Source: a virus (Duplodnaviria; Heunggongvirae; Uroviricota; Caudoviricetes). From it: DNA of 4,106 nucleotides. Each line of letters begins with the position of its first letter. The stretch's first letter is position 1. A program made the position numbers and the translations under genes. Shown here one piece after another: positions 1 to 4,106 of the stretch. The notes beneath the pieces were generated by a model, which saw only the letters and a program-made list of their open reading frames with translations, made no database searches and was not told the DNA's origin. The DNA lies in IMG/VR virus record IMGVR_UViG_2541047433_000013; one strand, given 5' to 3'.

Positions 1-85
1 GGTCTTTCCTCGTTACCAGTGCCGTCACTATGACGGTTAAACAGATGACGATCAGGGCGATTAACATCGCCTTTTGCTGCTTCAT
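1..85 (-). CDS. hok: Hok/Gef-family type I toxin, 5' portion only (28 N-terminal codons; gene continues past the left edge)
   Basis: Reverse complement of 1..85 translates to MKQQKAMLIALIVICLTVIVTALVTRKD with ATG at 85..83. From memory this closely matches the N-terminal transmembrane region of HokD/RelF and Gef. AAGGAG Shine-Dalgarno at 100..95 sits 9 nt upstream of the ATG. Not in the ORF track because it is partial. Confidence 0.8.
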   Translation of the reverse strand, partial: MKQQKAMLIALIVICLTVIVTALVTRKD

Positions 86-158
86 AGCCTGCTTCTCCTT
101 GCCTTTCGGCACGTAAGAGGCTAACCTACATGTGTTCAGCATGGATTGAGCCTCAGAT

Positions 159-193
159 TAATGTTAAGCGTCTTGCAGGACGCGTAATGTTAA
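159..193. repeat. 9-bp direct repeat TAATGTTAA (159..167 and 185..193) flanking a 5-bp inverted repeat GCGTC/GACGC (168..172 and 179..183, loop TTGCAG)
   Basis: Read directly from the sequence. It lies in the predicted hok mRNA leader, or equally in the predicted antisense (Sok-like) region. Confidence 0.4.
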
Positions 194-260
194 CTGGGGC
201 TTTTCTCTATCTGCCGTTGGTGTTCATGCCCGAGGCAGATAGCCTCAAGCACCCGCAGCA

Positions 261-1276: not shown

Positions 1277-1588
1277 TTATGCTTCGGCCTTATTTCTCAG
1301 CCATACACAAACAGGACCATCTTCGGTGTCATGTATCGAACCGATAAACCATCCCTCACCTTCTGGTCGCTCAGGTTCCCATGCTGAAATATCAGGGCCA
1401 TCTGCGTCCAGATTAAAATCATCTTCATCCATACTACGGATAGCCCACTGAAGATTATTTTTCTCCATCCAGGCGTTAAACTCTTCCGTTGAAATATATT
1501 CCCGACCATCACAGAATTTTTCATATTCAGGATGCGTCCAGCAGCCATATTCATTACGTTCCACTGGCATTTCTTTAATTACGCTCAT
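1277..1588 (-). CDS. Hypothetical phage protein, 103 aa, acidic and Trp-rich
   Basis: ORF in the track. The ATG at 1588..1586 overlaps the TGA of the upstream small ORF (ATGA). A G-rich Shine-Dalgarno (AAGGGGGG) lies immediately upstream. No family recognised. Confidence 0.7.
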   Translation of the reverse strand: MSVIKEMPVERNEYGCWTHPEYEKFCDGREYISTEEFNAWMEKNNLQWAIRSMDEDDFNLDADGPDISAWEPERPEGEGWFIGSIHDTEDGPVCVWLRNKAEA

Positions 1589-1737
1589 TTACCCCCCTTA
1601 TTTAATTTTCTACGACACTTTTTACAATCATCTGGACTTTCGAATGTATCCGGCTCACGCTCATTGCCAAAATACATCCACCCACCGCAAATACTTGTTA
1701 TTTCACCTTCAGCAAAATAATGATGTTTTTTCGCCAT
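1585..1737 (-). CDS. Small Cys/His-containing protein, about 50 aa, possible metal-binding mini-protein
   Basis: The track ORF 1585..1773 starts with GTG. I prefer the internal ATG at 1737..1735 (MAKKHHYF...), which is preceded by AAGG. The protein has HH near the N-terminus and three Cys (ICGG, DDCKKC). Its stop overlaps the next start by 4 nt. Confidence 0.45.
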   Translation of the reverse strand: MAKKHHYFAEGEITSICGGWMYFGNEREPDTFESPDDCKKCRRKLNKGGK

Positions 1738-1769
1738 AAGTGGCCTTGCCCAGCCCGGATTCGTTTTAC

Positions 1770-2126
1770 TCACTTGTTGCCTCCTTTGCGAAGCTCTGCG
1801 ACTAACTCGTCACATATGTGCGTCAAAGAGCAAAGTTTGATTGCTGGATGTTCGCGCACCATCTCCACACCCTGCGCCCGCAATTCTGCCAGAAAAGCGT
1901 AGGGGTCAGTTTTTTCACTGTGGTACATGGCATCATAGATAATCATTGCAGCGACACCTGCCTGTCCTGCATCTGTGACGGATATATGCTCAAGGGCTAC
2001 GGCCATTGCGTGTTTCAACCTCTCATTTTCCACCTCAAGCACCACACGATTAGCCTCCAGCTCTTCTATGCGTTTTTTTGCTGCTCCCAGCTCAACACGC
2101 AGCTCCTGATAGTTAATCTCGCTCAT
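1770..2126 (-). CDS. Hypothetical phage protein, 118 aa, with a probable coiled-coil N-terminus
   Basis: ORF in the track. The ATG at 2126..2124 overlaps the upstream stop (ATGA). GGGAGG lies 7 nt upstream. The N-terminal 40 residues are rich in E/L/K/R with a heptad-like pattern. Confidence 0.65.
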   Translation of the reverse strand: MSEINYQELRVELGAAKKRIEELEANRVVLEVENERLKHAMAVALEHISVTDAGQAGVAAMIIYDAMYHSEKTDPYAFLAELRAQGVEMVREHPAIKLCSLTHICDELVAELRKGGNK

Positions 2127-2347
2127 TCTCCTTCCTCCCGCACTGCTGTTTTATATGCCCGAAGCACATGCGATGTTTTTCCTGACACAGTGCTTCTCAG
2201 AAAGAAAATTCCACTGGTGTTTATTACCAGATACGGGTCAGCAAGACGCAGCATATCCAGTATGTGATTATGTTTTCTTGTTTCCAGCACCGTACTTGAA
2301 ATAAGCATATGTGACACGGGGCCGAAATCATGATATCTGATTTTCAT
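2123..2347 (-). CDS. Hypothetical phage protein, 74 aa
   Basis: ORF in the track with ATG at 2347..2345. AGGGTG Shine-Dalgarno about 6 nt upstream. It sits 21 nt downstream of the preceding gene's stop and its own stop overlaps the next start. Confidence 0.55.
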   Translation of the reverse strand: MKIRYHDFGPVSHMLISSTVLETRKHNHILDMLRLADPYLVINTSGIFFLRSTVSGKTSHVLRAYKTAVREEGE

Positions 2348-2368
2348 ATCATCACCCTGCTGTAAAAA

Positions 2369-3079
2369 TTACCCGTTATCTCCTGTCGTTATTTTCTGTA
2401 TGACATCACGATGCTTATTAATTTCCCGCAGCGCGGCGCATAAGCGCTCCCACTTCTGAACCTGACCTTTTGCCCGGCGCAGCTCGCGGTTAGCCACATG
2501 CAGCGATGGTAAAATCAGACCATCCGGATGCTTTCTGATGAACGACGACTGTGACTGCACTGTGACCGCCACACTTTCCGTTTTTATTTCTTCCTGTGTT
2601 TCCGCTTCCCGGACTGGTAACGCAACACCTGCTGGCTGAGGAAAGGCTTTACCATCCGTTTCCGTTATGGATGCGGCTTTCGGCTCTGCCGGTAAATTAT
2701 CGCCCGGTATGCAGTAACGATATTTACCGTCCTGATTCACGCGAATCAGACGCCCTTTGCTGACAGCCATCGCCAGTGATGAATTCGCCCGGCGGGAGGT
2801 AATCCCGAACATTAGCGCCAGTTCGTCAGCCGTTTGTGGGCCATGATGTTCAATCGCCTCAGTCAGCATTTGCGCTGTCACTTTCGGTACCGGTGACACT
2901 GGTTCACTTTCACCAGTCTGAGTCAGCCACCACATCGACCCCTTGTTATCCGCTTCACCACGGCGCTTCAGTTTCCACAGTTCGTTGACAGCATCTTCGC
3001 GGCTGATTCCAAGGCGCGATGCCACTACCTGTGAAGAGGCTTTTTTCAGTGCTTTCAGTGCGTCAAATACGGTTTCCAT
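2369..3079 (-). CDS. Tandem winged-helix phage protein, about 236 aa (DUF1627-like), in the position lambda ren occupies after P
   Basis: The track ORF starts with TTG at 3097. I prefer ATG at 3079..3077 (METVFDALK...), which has GGAGG 8 nt upstream. Two segments look like winged-helix HTH units ([10 protein letters not shown]...[10 protein letters not shown] and [10 protein letters not shown]...[10 protein letters not shown]). DUF1627 assignment is from memory. Confidence 0.75.
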
Positions 3080-3112
3080 TAATATTTCCTCCGACAAAAT
3101 CGTTTCTCAGAT

Positions 3113-3775
3113 TCAAATAAAACCAGCTGCCTTCCGGCGTTCGTATTCCTGTTTCAGCCGTTCAATTGGCGTTGGCCCTTGCGGGTGTTTCGCCCCTTCC
3201 AGTTGTCGTCGCACTGGCGGAACACTCATCCCGTTACCAACATGCTTTGCCCATTTCGTCAGTTGCCGTTCCGCAAGTCGTTTTAACTCACCTTGCGTCA
3301 TCTGGCGCTCAATCCCTCTGGTACGCATTTCGAGGCAGATGTGGTACAGCACAGGCTGTGGCCACGGGTATTTATCACTCCCGTCGTATCGCCAGGATTC
3401 ATTGCGCCAGCGCCGGTACTCTTCCATCACGGCATCCACCGTAAGACCAAATGGATTTGCCCCACTCTCCGAAATCAGCGCAACAAACTCAGCCAGGTCC
3501 GGGGGCCACGTTTCACCCGCCCGGCAGCGGTCCATGCACTGACGGCACACCAGACGGATTTGCTGTTCAGTCATCGCACCAATCTGGGCAATCCAGAGCT
3601 TCGAAGGTGCGGCCCCGTTCTTCTGAGTCCAGCGGTTCGAATACACCTCCCCCATGAGCTCCCACAGCTTCCAGGCCGTTTCCGTTGCTGATAAATCCGT
3701 TGTCACGTTCCCACTGTTCGCGTGCAGCCCGGATTTCCTGAACTGCCCGTGATGCCGTGCCACCTGATGCTGCAT
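3113..3775 (-). CDS. Lambda-P-like replication protein (DnaB helicase loader)
   Basis: ORF in the track. The C-terminal half aligns by eye with lambda P as I recall it (conserved YPW, ELRR/ELKR and PVxxQL blocks; MTEQQ versus TMEQV). AAGGGGGG Shine-Dalgarno 5 nt upstream of ATG 3775..3773. Alternative starts are ATG 3655 and ATG 3574. Confidence 0.8.
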   Translation of the reverse strand: MQHQVARHHGQFRKSGLHANSGNVTTDLSATETAWKLWELMGEVYSNRWTQKNGAAPSKLWIAQIGAMTEQQIRLVCRQCMDRCRAGETWPPDLAEFVALISESGANPFGLTVDAVMEEYRRWRNESWRYDGSDKYPWPQPVLYHICLEMRTRGIERQMTQGELKRLAERQLTKWAKHVGNGMSVPPVRRQLEGAKHPQGPTPIERLKQEYERRKAAGFI

Positions 3776-4106
3776 GGCTTCCCCCCTTGCTGACTGGTTT
3801 TACCTGTGCCCTGACGTGCTGCACGTGGCGGGCAAATTTCTGCTCCCACTGAACCTGCGTGAAAACCTTCCCCTCCGCCATCCAGTAATCCCGGAATGCG
3901 GCAAGCTCAGCAGGTGTAAATTCCGGCTCAGGCAGAGCCATACCCCACACTGCTGCCCGTTGTCGAAAATCCGGCGACGGCTGCCAGACAGTAGTCATCG
4001 AAAATTTCCCGATCGGTTCGCTCAGGCCGTCCAGGTATTCAGGTTCGGCTGTCTGCAACGGCGCACCATTCGACTCACTGGTCGGAATACTCTCGCGCGC
4101 GTTATG
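3567..4106 (-). CDS. Replication initiator with a DnaT-like domain, 3' portion (reading frame open to the right edge, so the N-terminus is outside the window)
   Basis: The track ORF 3567..4058 begins at a TTG, but the frame stays open through 4106. The segment GKFSMTTVWQPSPDF...YWMAEGKVFTQVQWEQKFARHV resembles the C-terminal domain of E. coli primosomal protein DnaT (GKFAMYPDWQPDADF...[22 protein letters not shown]), recalled from memory. Confidence 0.8.
   Translation of the reverse strand, partial: HNARESIPTSESNGAPLQTAEPEYLDGLSEPIGKFSMTTVWQPSPDFRQRAAVWGMALPEPEFTPAELAAFRDYWMAEGKVFTQVQWEQKFARHVQHVRAQVKPVSKGGSHAASGGTASRAVQEIRAAREQWERDNGFISNGNGLEAVGAHGGGVFEPLDSEERGRTFEALDCPDWCDD

What the first reader, a model, noticed from the sequence alone, without database searches (positions are those of the whole stretch)
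3567..3775. About 209-bp out-of-frame overlap between the initiator 3' end and the P-like gene 5' end
Both reading frames are open across 3567..3775. The P-like frame has its strongest Shine-Dalgarno at ATG 3775, and its similarity to lambda P appears to extend upstream of the internal ATG at 3574 (KLWIAQIGAMTEQQ versus QWVLAFRENGITTMEQV, from memory). The initiator frame continues about 70 residues beyond its DnaT-like domain to an acidic tail (EALDCPDWCDD) before stopping at 3569..3567. This is either a true dual-coding overlap that couples initiator and loader expression, a frameshift in a decaying prophage, or a short P-like protein starting at 3574, where ATGACTGA gives classic stop/start coupling.
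Basis: partly seen in the sequence, partly recalled or inferred. Interest (0 to 1): 0.55.

Follow-up and report, generated by a model that had tools for sequence, protein, structure and literature searches.

The report
Conserved initiator–helicase-loader gene overlap
In this E. coli O157 prophage, the end of the replication-initiator gene and the start of the lambda-P-like helicase-loader gene share about 209 bases read in two frames. The arrangement is conserved from Vibrio phages to enterobacterial prophages, and current annotation hides it by starting the loader 67 codons too late.

Summary
On the minus strand the initiator frame (DnaT domain) stops at 3569..3567. The P-like frame is open from ATG 3775, which has the strongest Shine-Dalgarno of the three candidate starts.

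RefSeq starts P at ATG 3574 (153 aa, 8-nt ATGACTGA overlap). Comparative data contradict that start.
- In 37 loci from about 30 species of Enterobacterales, and in three Vibrio phage groups, an SD-preceded ATG aligns with 3775.
- In all of them the initiator stops 149-227 nt further on, always in the same relative frame.
- P residues 34-68 (AWKLWE..YSNRWTQKNG..LWIAQIGAM), upstream of the RefSeq start, are strongly conserved and are modelled as helices.

The overlap has two zones.
- P codons 1-30 carry the initiator's selection signature: a conserved SRAVQEIRAAREQW segment, with P a disordered leader.
- P codons 31-70 carry P's signature. There the initiator's acidic tail is only kept open (37/37 loci against 26% expected by chance).

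Initiators with unrelated N-terminal domains (DnaT, DUF1376, Phage_rep_O, HTH_36/DnaD_N) share only this tail, and their similarity begins at P's ATG.

Verdict: a genuine, ancient dual-coding junction. It is not a frameshift and not a short P. That the tail recruits the loader is inferred, not shown.

The parts
3567..4106 (-). 3' part of the replication-initiator gene. It runs off the right edge of the window and is 347 aa in the identical RefSeq locus. The stop TGA is at 3569..3567.
   Evidence: frame. (PF17948 DnaT, 63.1 bits). (WP_001262402, DnaT-like ssDNA-binding domain-containing protein).
3804..4004 (-). DnaT DNA-binding domain of the initiator (fragment residues 35-101). This is initiator-only coding.
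   Evidence: The initiator's synonymous obs/exp is about 1.0 here.
3781..3788 (-). Shine-Dalgarno of the P-like gene (AAGGGGGG). It lies inside the initiator's Gly-rich linker codons (K-G-G).
   Evidence: anti-SD duplex -11.0 kcal/mol; mean -9.9 at the aligned ATG in 37 loci, against -3.0 for 461 other ATG triplets inside initiator ORFs. GGAGGT-type SD in nearly all loci.
3113..3775 (-). P-like helicase-loader gene, full form, 220 aa, starting at ATG 3775..3773.
   Evidence: PF06992, 57.9 bits. (216-223-aa orthologues in many genera). (aligned SD-ATG in 37/37 loci). (initiator codon at the ATG is always NAT followed by G). (AF2 model). (Foldseek to lambda P chain 9oa1_Z, E = 5.5e-6, 211 alignment columns).
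3686..3775 (-). Overlap zone 1, P codons 1-30. The initiator frame is the selected one. P here is a poorly conserved leader, modelled at low confidence (pLDDT below 50).
   Evidence: P position 2 (= initiator position 3) is the most variable and amino-acid entropy is 2.3 bits. P synonymous obs/exp 0.47-0.77; initiator synonymous obs/exp 0.69-0.87; 14 SNPs synonymous for the initiator against 8 synonymous for P; pLDDT below 50 for residues 1-26.
3705..3758 (-). Conserved initiator C-terminal segment TASRAVQEIRAAREQWER (fragment residues 117-134). It is the proposed loader-recruiting adaptor helix.
   Evidence: conserved across initiators, and recognisable in Vibrio phages; helix 117-135 in a low-confidence single-sequence model. 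The function is inferred.
3567..3685 (-). Overlap zone 2, P codons 31-70. The P frame is the selected one. The initiator's acidic tail (net charge -7) is only kept open.
   Evidence: P position 3 is the most variable; initiator synonymous obs/exp 0.09-0.35. P synonymous obs/exp 0.80-1.02; 14 SNPs synonymous for P against 1 synonymous for the initiator; initiator frame open in 37/37 loci against 26% expected; tail net charge -2 to -8.
3572..3676 (-). Conserved N-terminal core of P (residues 34-68, AWKLWELMGEVYSNRWTQKNGAAPSKLWIAQIGAM). It lies upstream of the RefSeq start.
   Evidence: R48, W49, K52, N53, G54, P57 and W61 are at least 90% conserved; tblastn matches to Vibrio phages begin at residues 33-37; helices 24-45, 47-53 and 59-66 at pLDDT about 79-88.
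3572..3574 (-). Internal ATG (Met68) that RefSeq uses as the P start. It is part of ATGACTGA, which holds the initiator stop.
   Evidence: 462-nt CDS with an 8-nt overlap; weak SD (-3.1). Met68 is Leu in many orthologues and the motif is absent in distant loci.
3653..3655 (-). Internal ATG (Met41), used by NCBI annotation as the P start in other genera (180-181-aa forms). It would give an 89-nt overlap.
   Evidence: SD -6.5 with only 3-nt spacing. It is missing in L023/L024 and in Vibrio phage D77.

Best explanation
The 209 bases at 3567..3775 are a genuine same-strand dual-coding junction between a prophage replication initiator and its lambda-P-type helicase loader.

The loader is translated independently from ATG 3775, using an SD that lies in Gly-rich linker codons of the initiator. 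This gives a 220-aa protein with the lambda P layout: a disordered N-terminal leader, then a helical domain beginning near residue 30. The initiator reads on in the frame that starts one base earlier and stops at 3567.

The overlap is partitioned.
- In the first 90 nt or so, selection acts on the initiator frame, which encodes a conserved, probably helical segment (SRAVQEIRAAREQW). P's leader is a by-product that only has to stay open.
- In the remaining 120 nt or so, selection acts on the P frame, which encodes the conserved AWxLWE..RWxxKNG..LW core. The initiator's acidic tail is a by-product that only has to stay open.

Inferred step: the initiator's C-terminal segment is the element that recruits the loader, as the lambda O C-terminal domain recruits P. 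Because it is encoded inside the loader gene's 5' end, the adaptor and its loader are inherited as one cassette. That cassette can be joined to unrelated origin-binding domains.
For: Shown by tool results:
1. Both frames are open, and the best SD is at 3775.
2. An SD-preceded ATG aligns with 3775 in 37/37 loci. The initiator stops 149-227 nt downstream (mode 209-215), always in the same relative frame. The same holds in three Vibrio phage groups, with overlaps of 191-212 nt.
3. At the ATG the initiator residue varies (H, N, D or Y), but its wobble base is T in 37/37 loci and the next codon always starts with G. The background T fraction at such codons is 0.48, so 13 divergent lineages give about 7e-5.
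4. P residues 34-68 are conserved across genera. They are modelled as helices at pLDDT about 79-88, while residues 1-26 fall below 50. The model matches full-length lambda P chain 9oa1_Z over 211 alignment columns. The lambda P domain layout is from PMC12661323.
5. The two frames show reciprocal selection signatures, in codon-position entropy, P synonymous obs/exp, initiator synonymous obs/exp and the SNP spectrum of 40 E. coli-clade haplotypes. No variant creates a stop in either frame.
6. The initiator frame is open across zone 2 in 37/37 loci against 26% expected. Control windows in P-only sequence are open in 18% against 17% expected. The product over 13 divergent loci is 3e-9.
7. Initiators with DnaT, DUF1376+T5orf172+DnaT, Phage_rep_O, DUF1376-only, HTH_36/DnaD_N or no Pfam domain all carry the tail. 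Between them, the 80 aa upstream of the P ATG score at the shuffle level (19-27). The tail scores 43-125, against a shuffle null of mean 26 and maximum 42.
Against: - There is no direct evidence of where translation starts (no ribosome profiling or N-terminal data).
- P codons 1-30 show no P-frame purifying selection. The choice of ATG 3775 over a start nearer residue 30 therefore rests on the conserved SD and ATG and on the open frame. That open-frame test is weak by itself: 63% expected per lineage, product 3e-4 over 13 loci.
- The initiator tail in zone 2 shows little amino-acid constraint beyond what P imposes (P synonymous obs/exp 0.80-1.02). Much of its conservation (E-P/S-L/M/V-D-x-E-E-R/W) is forced by P's NRWxxKNG codons.
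- The lineages are not fully independent, so the products of probabilities are approximate.
- The adaptor function is inference by analogy with lambda O-P. The single-sequence model of the initiator tail is unreliable (pLDDT 46).
- RefSeq annotates a 153-aa P in E. coli.
Confidence: 0.8

Rival explanations
1. RefSeq model. The loader is a 153-aa protein that starts at ATG 3574 and is translationally coupled to the initiator stop through ATGACTGA. On this view the open P frame upstream is incidental.
For: PGAP annotates it this way in every E. coli record fetched, as does phage Rac-SA53. The ATGACTGA stop/start motif is present and is kept in the Escherichia, Citrobacter, Enterobacter and Klebsiella clade. 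phmmer and hhalign similarity to lambda P begins at or after residue 69.
Against: - Residues 34-68 upstream are among the best conserved in the family.
- They show the P-frame codon signature, with 14 P-synonymous SNPs against 1 initiator-synonymous SNP.
- The initiator's synonymous sites there are frozen (obs/exp 0.09-0.35).
- Met68 is Leu in many orthologues, and the motif is absent from Serratia, Buttiauxella, Klebsiella sp. and other loci.
- The SD is weak (-3.1).
- The short form would lack three confidently modelled helices.
- A minor internal isoform in E. coli cannot be excluded.
Confidence: 0.07
2. The loader starts at the internal ATG 3655 (Met41; 180 aa), as NCBI annotates in Salmonella, Klebsiella, Citrobacter, Brenneria and Pectobacterium. 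This gives an 89-nt overlap instead of 209 nt.
For: There are many 180-181-aa 'replication protein P' entries. P codons 1-30 have no P-frame selection signature. A GGGAG lies upstream of this ATG (-6.5).
Against: - The conserved AWxLWE motif (residues 34-39) lies upstream of Met41, and matches to Vibrio phages begin at residues 33-37.
- Met41 is absent in L023/L024 and in phage D77.
- The SD spacing is only 3 nt.
- The ATG and SD aligned with 3775 are universal and are kept against initiator-frame synonymy.
- Even if this start were correct, the overlap would still be long, out of frame and dual-coding.
Confidence: 0.1
3. The overlap is damage: a frameshift or indel in a decaying prophage fused or extended one of the frames.
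For: The element is one of many O157 prophages, several of them defective (general knowledge). One related locus (Leclercia, L038) does carry a frameshift inside the overlap. Deletion or fusion variants exist as single database entries (P0106, P0061).
Against: The arrangement is the rule, not the exception: 37/37 intact loci across about 30 species, plus Vibrio phages, with the same relative frame and similar length. There are no frame-disrupting indels in the overlap among 86 close relatives; the only indel there is a whole codion-length change, a 3-nt indel just after the ATG. The sequence is 100% identical in many O157:H7 genomes.
Confidence: 0.01
4. A programmed +1 frameshift within the overlap makes an initiator-loader fusion protein, and the overlap exists to allow it.
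For: The P frame is +1 relative to the initiator frame, and both are open for about 70 codons.
Against: No conserved slippery or stall motif was seen in the overlap. The loader has its own conserved SD and ATG. The one natural 'fusion' in the database is a deletion, not a frameshift product. No RNA structure stands out.
Confidence: 0.02

Closest known systems
Phage lambda O-P replication module (initiator O and helicase loader P)
   Same: The gene order is the same: initiator, then loader. The loader belongs to Pfam PF06992. Its model matches lambda P in the DnaB-lambda P complex. It has the same layout of a disordered N-terminal segment followed by helical domains (PMC12661323). In lambda, the loader is recruited through the C-terminal part of the initiator (established knowledge; the lambda O 156-299 construct is used for this in PMC12661323).
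   Different: Lambda-type loci have only a short overlap at the junction: about 20 nt in L041, and open frames overlapping by only 22-29 nt in L042-L044. Here about 209 nt are dual-coding. The initiator is not an O protein in this window; it has a DnaT domain and no Phage_rep_O domain. Sequence similarity to lambda-type P begins only at residue 78, so the N-terminal core is family-specific.
Long same-strand out-of-frame overlapping genes of phages and viruses (the phiX174 type of overlap; overprinting)
   Same: Two proteins are read from the same bases in different frames. Synonymous sites are suppressed in each frame where the other is constrained. One partner in each zone is a low-complexity or disordered segment, as is typical of overprinted regions (general knowledge).
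   Different: Neither gene is embedded in the other. It is a terminal overlap with reciprocal dominance in two adjacent zones. It joins two proteins expected to interact, and it travels as a cassette under initiators with unrelated domains.
Translational coupling by overlapping stop and start (ATGA / ATGACTGA)
   Same: The motif ATGACTGA is present at 3567..3574. Ordinary 4-nt ATGA junctions link the small genes downstream in the window.
   Different: The ATG in this motif is an internal Met68 of the loader. It is not conserved as Met and has a weak SD. It is not the main start.
VdhL1/VdhL2, Vibrionaceae chromosomal helicase loaders derived from Vibrio phage loaders (PMC11087808)
   Same: The Vibrio phage relatives found here sit next to lambda O-like or DnaD-like initiator genes. 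That paper describes the same neighbourhood for the viral VdhL homologues, and it reports weak similarity of some VdhL proteins to PF06992 proteins.
   Different: Identity of these phage proteins with VdhL was not tested here. That paper does not mention an overlap: the word does not occur in its main text.

Membership tests
Phage_lambda_P (PF06992) helicase loaders | Match to the family profile above the curated cut-off | tested here: met
   57.9 bits against a cut-off of 26, E = 1.3e-15, residues 58-187 on profile positions 31-161 of 162.
Phage_lambda_P (PF06992) helicase loaders | Lambda P fold and domain order (N-terminal lasso, domain II, domain III, C-terminal lasso) | tested here: met
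   AF2 model with mean pLDDT 75.8: residues 1-26 at low confidence, helices from residue 24 to 180, terminal helix 203-216. Foldseek to 9oa1_Z gives E = 5.5e-6 over 211 alignment columns, though with a high rmsd because the relative domain positions differ. Lambda P domain limits are from PMC12661323.
Phage_lambda_P (PF06992) helicase loaders | Binds and loads host DnaB | not testable with these tools
   Needs biochemistry or genetics.
DnaT-domain replication or primosome proteins (PF17948) | Match to the DnaT DNA-binding domain profile above the cut-off | tested here: met
   63.1 bits against a cut-off of 25 in the window fragment. 62.6 bits at residues 203-269 of the full 347-aa protein.
Lambda O-type initiators (PF04492 Phage_rep_O) | Phage_rep_O N-terminal origin-binding domain | tested here: not met
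   The full-length initiator of the identical locus has only the DnaT domain. A Phage_rep_O initiator with the same tail does exist in another species (L022).
Genuine dual-coding (same-strand, out-of-frame) gene overlap | Both frames open over the shared stretch, more often than synonymous resampling predicts | tested here: met
   The initiator frame is open in 37/37 loci against 26% expected across zone 2. Control windows give 18% against 17%. The P frame is open in 37/37 loci against about 63% expected per lineage in zone 1, which is weaker evidence.
Genuine dual-coding (same-strand, out-of-frame) gene overlap | Evidence of purifying selection on each frame within the overlap | tested here: met
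   Signatures are reciprocal in the two zones. Within a zone, only one frame shows amino-acid constraint; the other is only kept open.
Genuine dual-coding (same-strand, out-of-frame) gene overlap | Arrangement conserved in distant relatives | tested here: met
   About 30 species of Enterobacterales and three Vibrio phage groups.
Genuine dual-coding (same-strand, out-of-frame) gene overlap | Both products demonstrably translated from the shared stretch | not testable with these tools
   No ribosome profiling or proteomic data were available here.
Stop/start translational coupling (ATGA-type junction) as the main arrangement | The downstream gene's true start codon overlaps the upstream stop | tested here: not met
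   The ATG at 3574 is internal to the conserved loader. Met68 is Leu in many orthologues and the motif is absent in distant loci.

The most novel reading that the evidence does not exclude
The loader gene carries, in an alternative frame of its own 5' leader, a portable adaptor peptide. Any initiator placed upstream acquires it simply by reading into the loader gene. The initiator's loader-binding segment and the loader's N-terminal region, possibly the very surfaces that touch, would then be written on the same bases. Recombination in mosaic phage genomes could never separate a loader from the tag that recruits it. This would explain why origin-binding domains of at least five unrelated architectures share only this tail, and why the arrangement has persisted from Vibrio phages to enterobacterial prophages. 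It may also persist in the chromosomal VdhL loaders of Vibrionaceae.
Probability: 0.35. Interest if true: 0.7.

Novelty: new variant of a known kind. Interest (0 to 1): 0.5.

Why it matters
1. Annotation. The loader of a prophage family present in about a third of complete E. coli genomes (1731 of 5426) is annotated 67 residues too short. Its annotated length elsewhere is inconsistent (140, 153, 177, 180, 184 and 216-223 aa). This will mislead structure prediction, family models and expression constructs.

2. Dual coding. Long same-strand overlaps in bacterial and phage genomes are usually dismissed as start-codon errors. This one survives every comparative test and shows a clean division of labour between the two frames. 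That makes it a good teaching and benchmarking case for methods that detect dual coding.

3. Module evolution. If the adaptor reading is right, overlap would be a way for mosaic phages to keep interacting partners linked while swapping origin-binding domains. This bears on how replication modules evolve and on how phage loaders are domesticated by hosts.

Tried and rejected
- Lambda P similarity upstream of Met68. A profile-profile comparison of this family with lambda-type P proteins aligns only from residue 78, and phmmer to lambda P only from residue 69. Within-family conservation is.
- Protein search with the 80-aa initiator tail alone. It returned only nine candidates, mostly partial E. 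coli fragments, and was uninformative about the tail's distribution.
- Protein search with the Vibrio phage D77 loader, to reach chromosomal VdhL genes. It returned only phage-like, unnamed entries.
- Single-sequence AlphaFold model of the initiator fragment. Mean pLDDT was 46, too low to rely on.
- RNA structure masking the loader's SD. The fold of 3720..3840 is not unusual (z = -1.0), so there is no support for structure-mediated coupling.
- A natural fusion protein (P0106) as a stand-in for a complex prediction. It is a deletion joining the initiator to P residue about 103 and lacks both elements of interest.
- The IMG/VR scan returned only close relatives (95-100% identity), so it added population data but no depth.
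- Two literature searches for a description of this overlap found none. This is a limited search, not proof of novelty.
Full report
**What is in the window**

All genes lie on the minus strand. The window is 100% identical over 3000..4106 to prophage DNA of several E. coli O157:H7 genomes. Related sequence occurs in 1731 of 5426 complete E. coli genomes.

The frame entering from the right edge encodes the C-terminal 179 residues of a protein with a DnaT DNA-binding domain (PF17948, 63.1 bits). It stops at 3569..3567. In the identical RefSeq locus this protein is 347 aa, sits where a lambdoid replication initiator sits (after cro/ydaT-like genes), and has no other Pfam domain.

A second frame is open from ATG 3775 to the stop at 3115..3113 (220 aa). 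It matches Pfam Phage_lambda_P at 57.9 bits, against a cut-off of 26. The two frames share 3567..3775. The P frame starts one base after the initiator frame.

**Checking the observation**

That SD is AAGGGGGG at 3781..3788, with an anti-SD duplex of -11.0 kcal/mol. ATG 3655 gives -6.5 and ATG 3574 gives -3.1.

For the window alone, chance is not negligible. Resampling synonymous codons leaves the P frame open in 36% of trials given the initiator protein. It leaves the initiator frame open in 5.7% of trials given the P protein.

**What annotation says**

RefSeq starts the P gene at ATG 3574 (153 aa, 8-nt overlap) in every E. coli record fetched. Phage records use 153 or 140 aa. In other genera NCBI entries start at the equivalent of Met41 (180-181 aa). 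Other sources-223 aa. The annotated start is therefore unstable.

**Relatives**

A protein search with the 220-aa frame found orthologues across Enterobacterales that cover 80-100% of it. In an alignment of 27 of them, residues 34-68 (AWKLWELMGEVYSNRWTQKNGAAPSKLWIAQIGAM) are among the best conserved. R48, W49, K52, N53, G54, P57 and W61 are at least 90% conserved. All of these lie upstream of the RefSeq start.

A scan of one genome per species returned 38 loci.
- Thirty are intact loci of this family with an upstream initiator. With the window and six E. coli records they make the 37 loci analysed below.
- Four loci are true lambda-type P genes. Their open frames overlap the upstream gene by only 22-29 nt in three cases, and the actual overlap in L041 is about 20 nt.
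- Two are orphan P genes next to host genes.
- One (Leclercia) carries a frameshift inside the overlap.

In all 37 loci an ATG preceded by a good SD (mostly GGAGGT) aligns with 3775. The upstream ORF stops 149-227 nt downstream (215 nt in 12 loci, 212 in 7, 209 in 5), always in the same relative frame.

The ATGACTGA junction is kept only in the Escherichia, Citrobacter, Enterobacter and Klebsiella clade and one other locus. Met68 is Leu in many orthologues.

**The start codon is selected as nucleotides**

In the initiator frame, the codon holding the loader's AT is CAT, AAT, GAT or TAT (His, Asn, Asp or Tyr). The next codon begins with G (Ala, Val, Glu or Gly). So the amino acids change while A-T-G does not.

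The wobble base is T in 37/37 loci, although C would be synonymous for all four amino acids and T makes up only 48% of such codons in these loci. The SD falls on the initiator's conserved Gly-Gly codons. The anti-SD duplex averages -9.9 kcal/mol at this ATG, against -3.0 for 461 other ATG triplets inside the initiator ORFs.

**Two zones**

*Codon-position entropy across 37 sequences.* In P codons 1-30, the P frame's second position, which is the initiator's third, is the most variable (1.26-1.48 bits). Amino-acid entropy there is high (2.3 bits). From codon 31 on, the normal P pattern holds, with position 3 the most variable.

*Synonymous differences between pairs below 80% identity.*

| Frame measured | Zone 1 (P codons 1-30) | Zone 2 (P codons 31-70) | Outside the overlap |
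|---|---|---|---|
| P frame, obs/exp | 0.47-0.77 | 0.80-1.02 | 0.86-1.09 |
| Initiator frame, obs/exp | 0.69-0.87 (first 30 overlap codons) | 0.09-0.35 (last 40 codons) | 0.84-1.07 |

*Variants among 40 haplotypes of the E. coli clade.*

| Region | Initiator-synonymous / P-changing | P-synonymous / initiator-changing | Changing both |
|---|---|---|---|
| P codons 1-35 | 14 | 8 | 2 |
| P codons 36-70 | 1 | 14 | 1 |

None of these variants creates a stop in either frame.

So the initiator is the constrained frame over roughly 3686..3775. It encodes TASRAVQEIRAAREQWER there, a segment that is recognisable in every initiator tail. The loader is the constrained frame over roughly 3567..3685.

**Is the unconstrained partner merely open by luck?**

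In zone 2 the initiator frame is open in 37/37 loci, whereas synonymous resampling of the P codons leaves it open 26% of the time. In 148 control windows of the same length in P-only sequence, the same relative frame is open in 18%, against 17% predicted. The null is therefore calibrated. Over 13 divergent loci the product is 3e-9, which assumes independence and is approximate.

Much of the tail's apparent conservation (E-P/S-L/M/V-D-x-E-E-R/W) is dictated by the loader's NRWxxKNG codons. What is maintained is the open frame and an acidic character (net charge -2 to -8), not a specific sequence.

In zone 1 the P frame would stay open by chance 63% of the time per lineage (product 3e-4). The long start therefore rests mainly on the conserved SD and ATG.

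**Structure**

An AlphaFold model of the 220-aa form from the 27-sequence alignment has mean pLDDT 75.8. Residues 1-26 fall below 50. Helices at 24-45, 47-53, 59-66 and 70-85 have pLDDT about 79-88.

The model matches lambda P in the DnaB-lambda P cryo-EM structures. The best match is the one fully ordered chain, 9oa1_Z, at E = 5.5e-6 over 211 alignment columns.

Lambda P is described as an intrinsically disordered N-terminal lasso (residues 1-29), then compact domain II (about 30-119), domain III and a C-terminal lasso. The authors speculate that the N-terminal lassoes engage lambda O (PMC12661323). The 220-aa form reproduces this layout. The 153-aa form would lack the leader and three helices of the domain-II equivalent.

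Direct sequence similarity to lambda-type P begins only at residue 78 by hhalign and at residue 69 by phmmer. The Pfam match begins at residue 58.

**Beyond Enterobacterales**

A translated search of phage genomes found 124 Vibrio phage records whose matches begin at loader residues 33-37. In three representative groups (D77, D195 and 1.247.B):
- the P-like frame is open 191-212 nt before the stop of the upstream 'replication initiation O-like' gene, in the same relative frame;
- the start has the same NAT-G context;
- the initiator tails are recognisably related (...ATSRVSAALEKQRAEF...HGQVHQEERGG..DLD...).

Their annotations again truncate or shift the loader start.

**A cassette under unrelated initiators**

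The upstream proteins have different architectures:

| Architecture | Locus or loci |
|---|---|
| DnaT domain only | the window, L011, L035 |
| DUF1376 + T5orf172 + DnaT | L004 |
| Phage_rep_O | L022 |
| DUF1376 only | L023, L026 |
| HTH_36/DnaD_N | Vibrio phages |
| No Pfam domain | L030, L040 |

Compared with the window's initiator, the 80 residues before the loader ATG score at the shuffle level (19-27) for these unrelated types. The tail still scores 43-125, against a shuffle null of mean 26 and maximum 42. Similarity among initiators thus begins at the loader's start codon. The tail belongs, in terms of inheritance, to the loader gene.

**How it most likely works**

Shown: two proteins are encoded by the same 209 bases. 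The loader has its own conserved initiation signals inside the initiator's linker. Each frame is under amino-acid constraint in one half of the overlap and is merely kept open in the other. The arrangement is old and travels with the loader.

Inferred: the conserved initiator segment in zone 1 is the element that recruits the loader-DnaB complex to the origin. This follows by analogy with lambda, where the loader is recruited through the initiator's C-terminal part. Encoding the segment within the loader gene keeps adaptor and loader together when origin-binding domains are exchanged.

Not supported: coupling through RNA structure (z = -1.0), and a programmed frameshift (no motif seen, and the loader has its own start).

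**Comparison with what is known, and novelty**

Functionally this is a lambda O-P-type initiator-loader pair, and the loader is a member of PF06992. The initiator is not an O protein. Long dual-coding overlaps are well known in small phages and viruses, so the kind is known.

Two things appear not to have been described. One is this particular conserved junction, about 200 nt with reciprocal dominance of the two frames. The other is its cassette behaviour under heterologous initiators. Two literature searches found nothing. The paper on phage-derived VdhL loaders of Vibrionaceae, which concerns what may be the same phage family, does not mention an overlap. The literature check was limited.

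**Verdict**

The dual-coding reading is supported at about 0.8. The frameshift and short-P readings are rejected or unlikely. The adaptor-cassette reading is plausible at about 0.35 and is worth testing. Interest is moderate (0.5).

Noticed in passing
window 1..254, minus strand: There is a hok/sok-type toxin-antitoxin locus at the left edge. Rfam sok (RF01794) matches 80..254 at 113.5 bits. The minus-strand reading from about 85 down to 1 begins MKQQKAMLIALIVICLTVIVTALVTRKD, a Hok/Gef-type peptide that runs off the window. The related RefSeq locus annotates a Hok/Gef family protein in this neighbourhood.
   Followed up: partly
window 3113..3775, and database entries P0001-P0120: The annotated length of this loader is inconsistent across sources and genera: 140, 153, 177, 180-181, 184 and 216-223 aa. 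NCBI pipelines favour starts that minimise the overlap. Family models and counts built on these entries inherit the truncation.
   Followed up: yes
L038 (Leclercia adecarboxylata) 2441..3150: This copy has a frameshift inside the overlap. The P frame runs MQEF...AWHLWQVMGGNILEPVDAEEWGRTFGALDSPDRFDD*, so it switches into the initiator tail frame, and the rest of P continues in another frame. It shows what real decay of this junction looks like.
   Followed up: partly
L031 (Erwinia sp. CGal63) 2420..3052; L039 (Erwinia sp. MMLR14_017) 2459..3043: These are intact P-like genes without any initiator upstream, flanked by what look like host genes. Their leaders are short (MFNNSPDTPVWQLWD... in L039). 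The roughly 30-residue leader is therefore dispensable in length when no initiator tail has to be encoded. Why these orphan loaders are kept is unknown.
   Followed up: no
L047-L049 (Vibrio phages D77, D195, 1.247.B) around 1390..1613: The loader relatives in Vibrio phages sit next to HTH_36/DnaD_N 'O-like' initiators. That is the neighbourhood reported for the viral ancestors of the Vibrionaceae chromosomal loaders VdhL1/2 (PMC11087808). Whether these proteins are VdhL homologues, and whether chromosomal vdhL overlaps its conserved upstream gene OG4911, could not be checked.
   Followed up: partly
window 1277..2347, minus strand: A run of small early-region ORFs is joined by 4-nt overlaps of the ATGA type (1585..1588, 1770..1773, 2123..2126). 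This is ordinary stop/start coupling and contrasts with the 209-nt junction upstream.
   Followed up: no
L004 (E. coli QML220601) 2069..3301; also H7-H9: Some E. coli prophages carry the same tail and loader (86-99% identical DNA) behind a different initiator N-terminus, DUF1376 plus a T5orf172/MUG113 (GIY-YIG-like) domain inserted before the DnaT domain. This is a clear mosaic joint inside the initiator gene.
   Followed up: partly
L027-L029 (Buttiauxella, Serratia) about 2063..2435: In these three loci the P frame happens to stay open for a further 70-120 codons upstream of the conserved SD-ATG, across the initiator's DnaT region. The translation is Arg-rich and looks like off-frame reading. 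It is probably chance in GC-rich sequence, but this was not tested.
   Followed up: no
window 2369..3097, minus strand: The gene after the loader is a DUF1627 protein (262.6 bits) with weak winged-helix/HTH-type matches at its N-terminus. It follows the loader in nearly all E. coli loci fetched, and its function is unknown.
   Followed up: no
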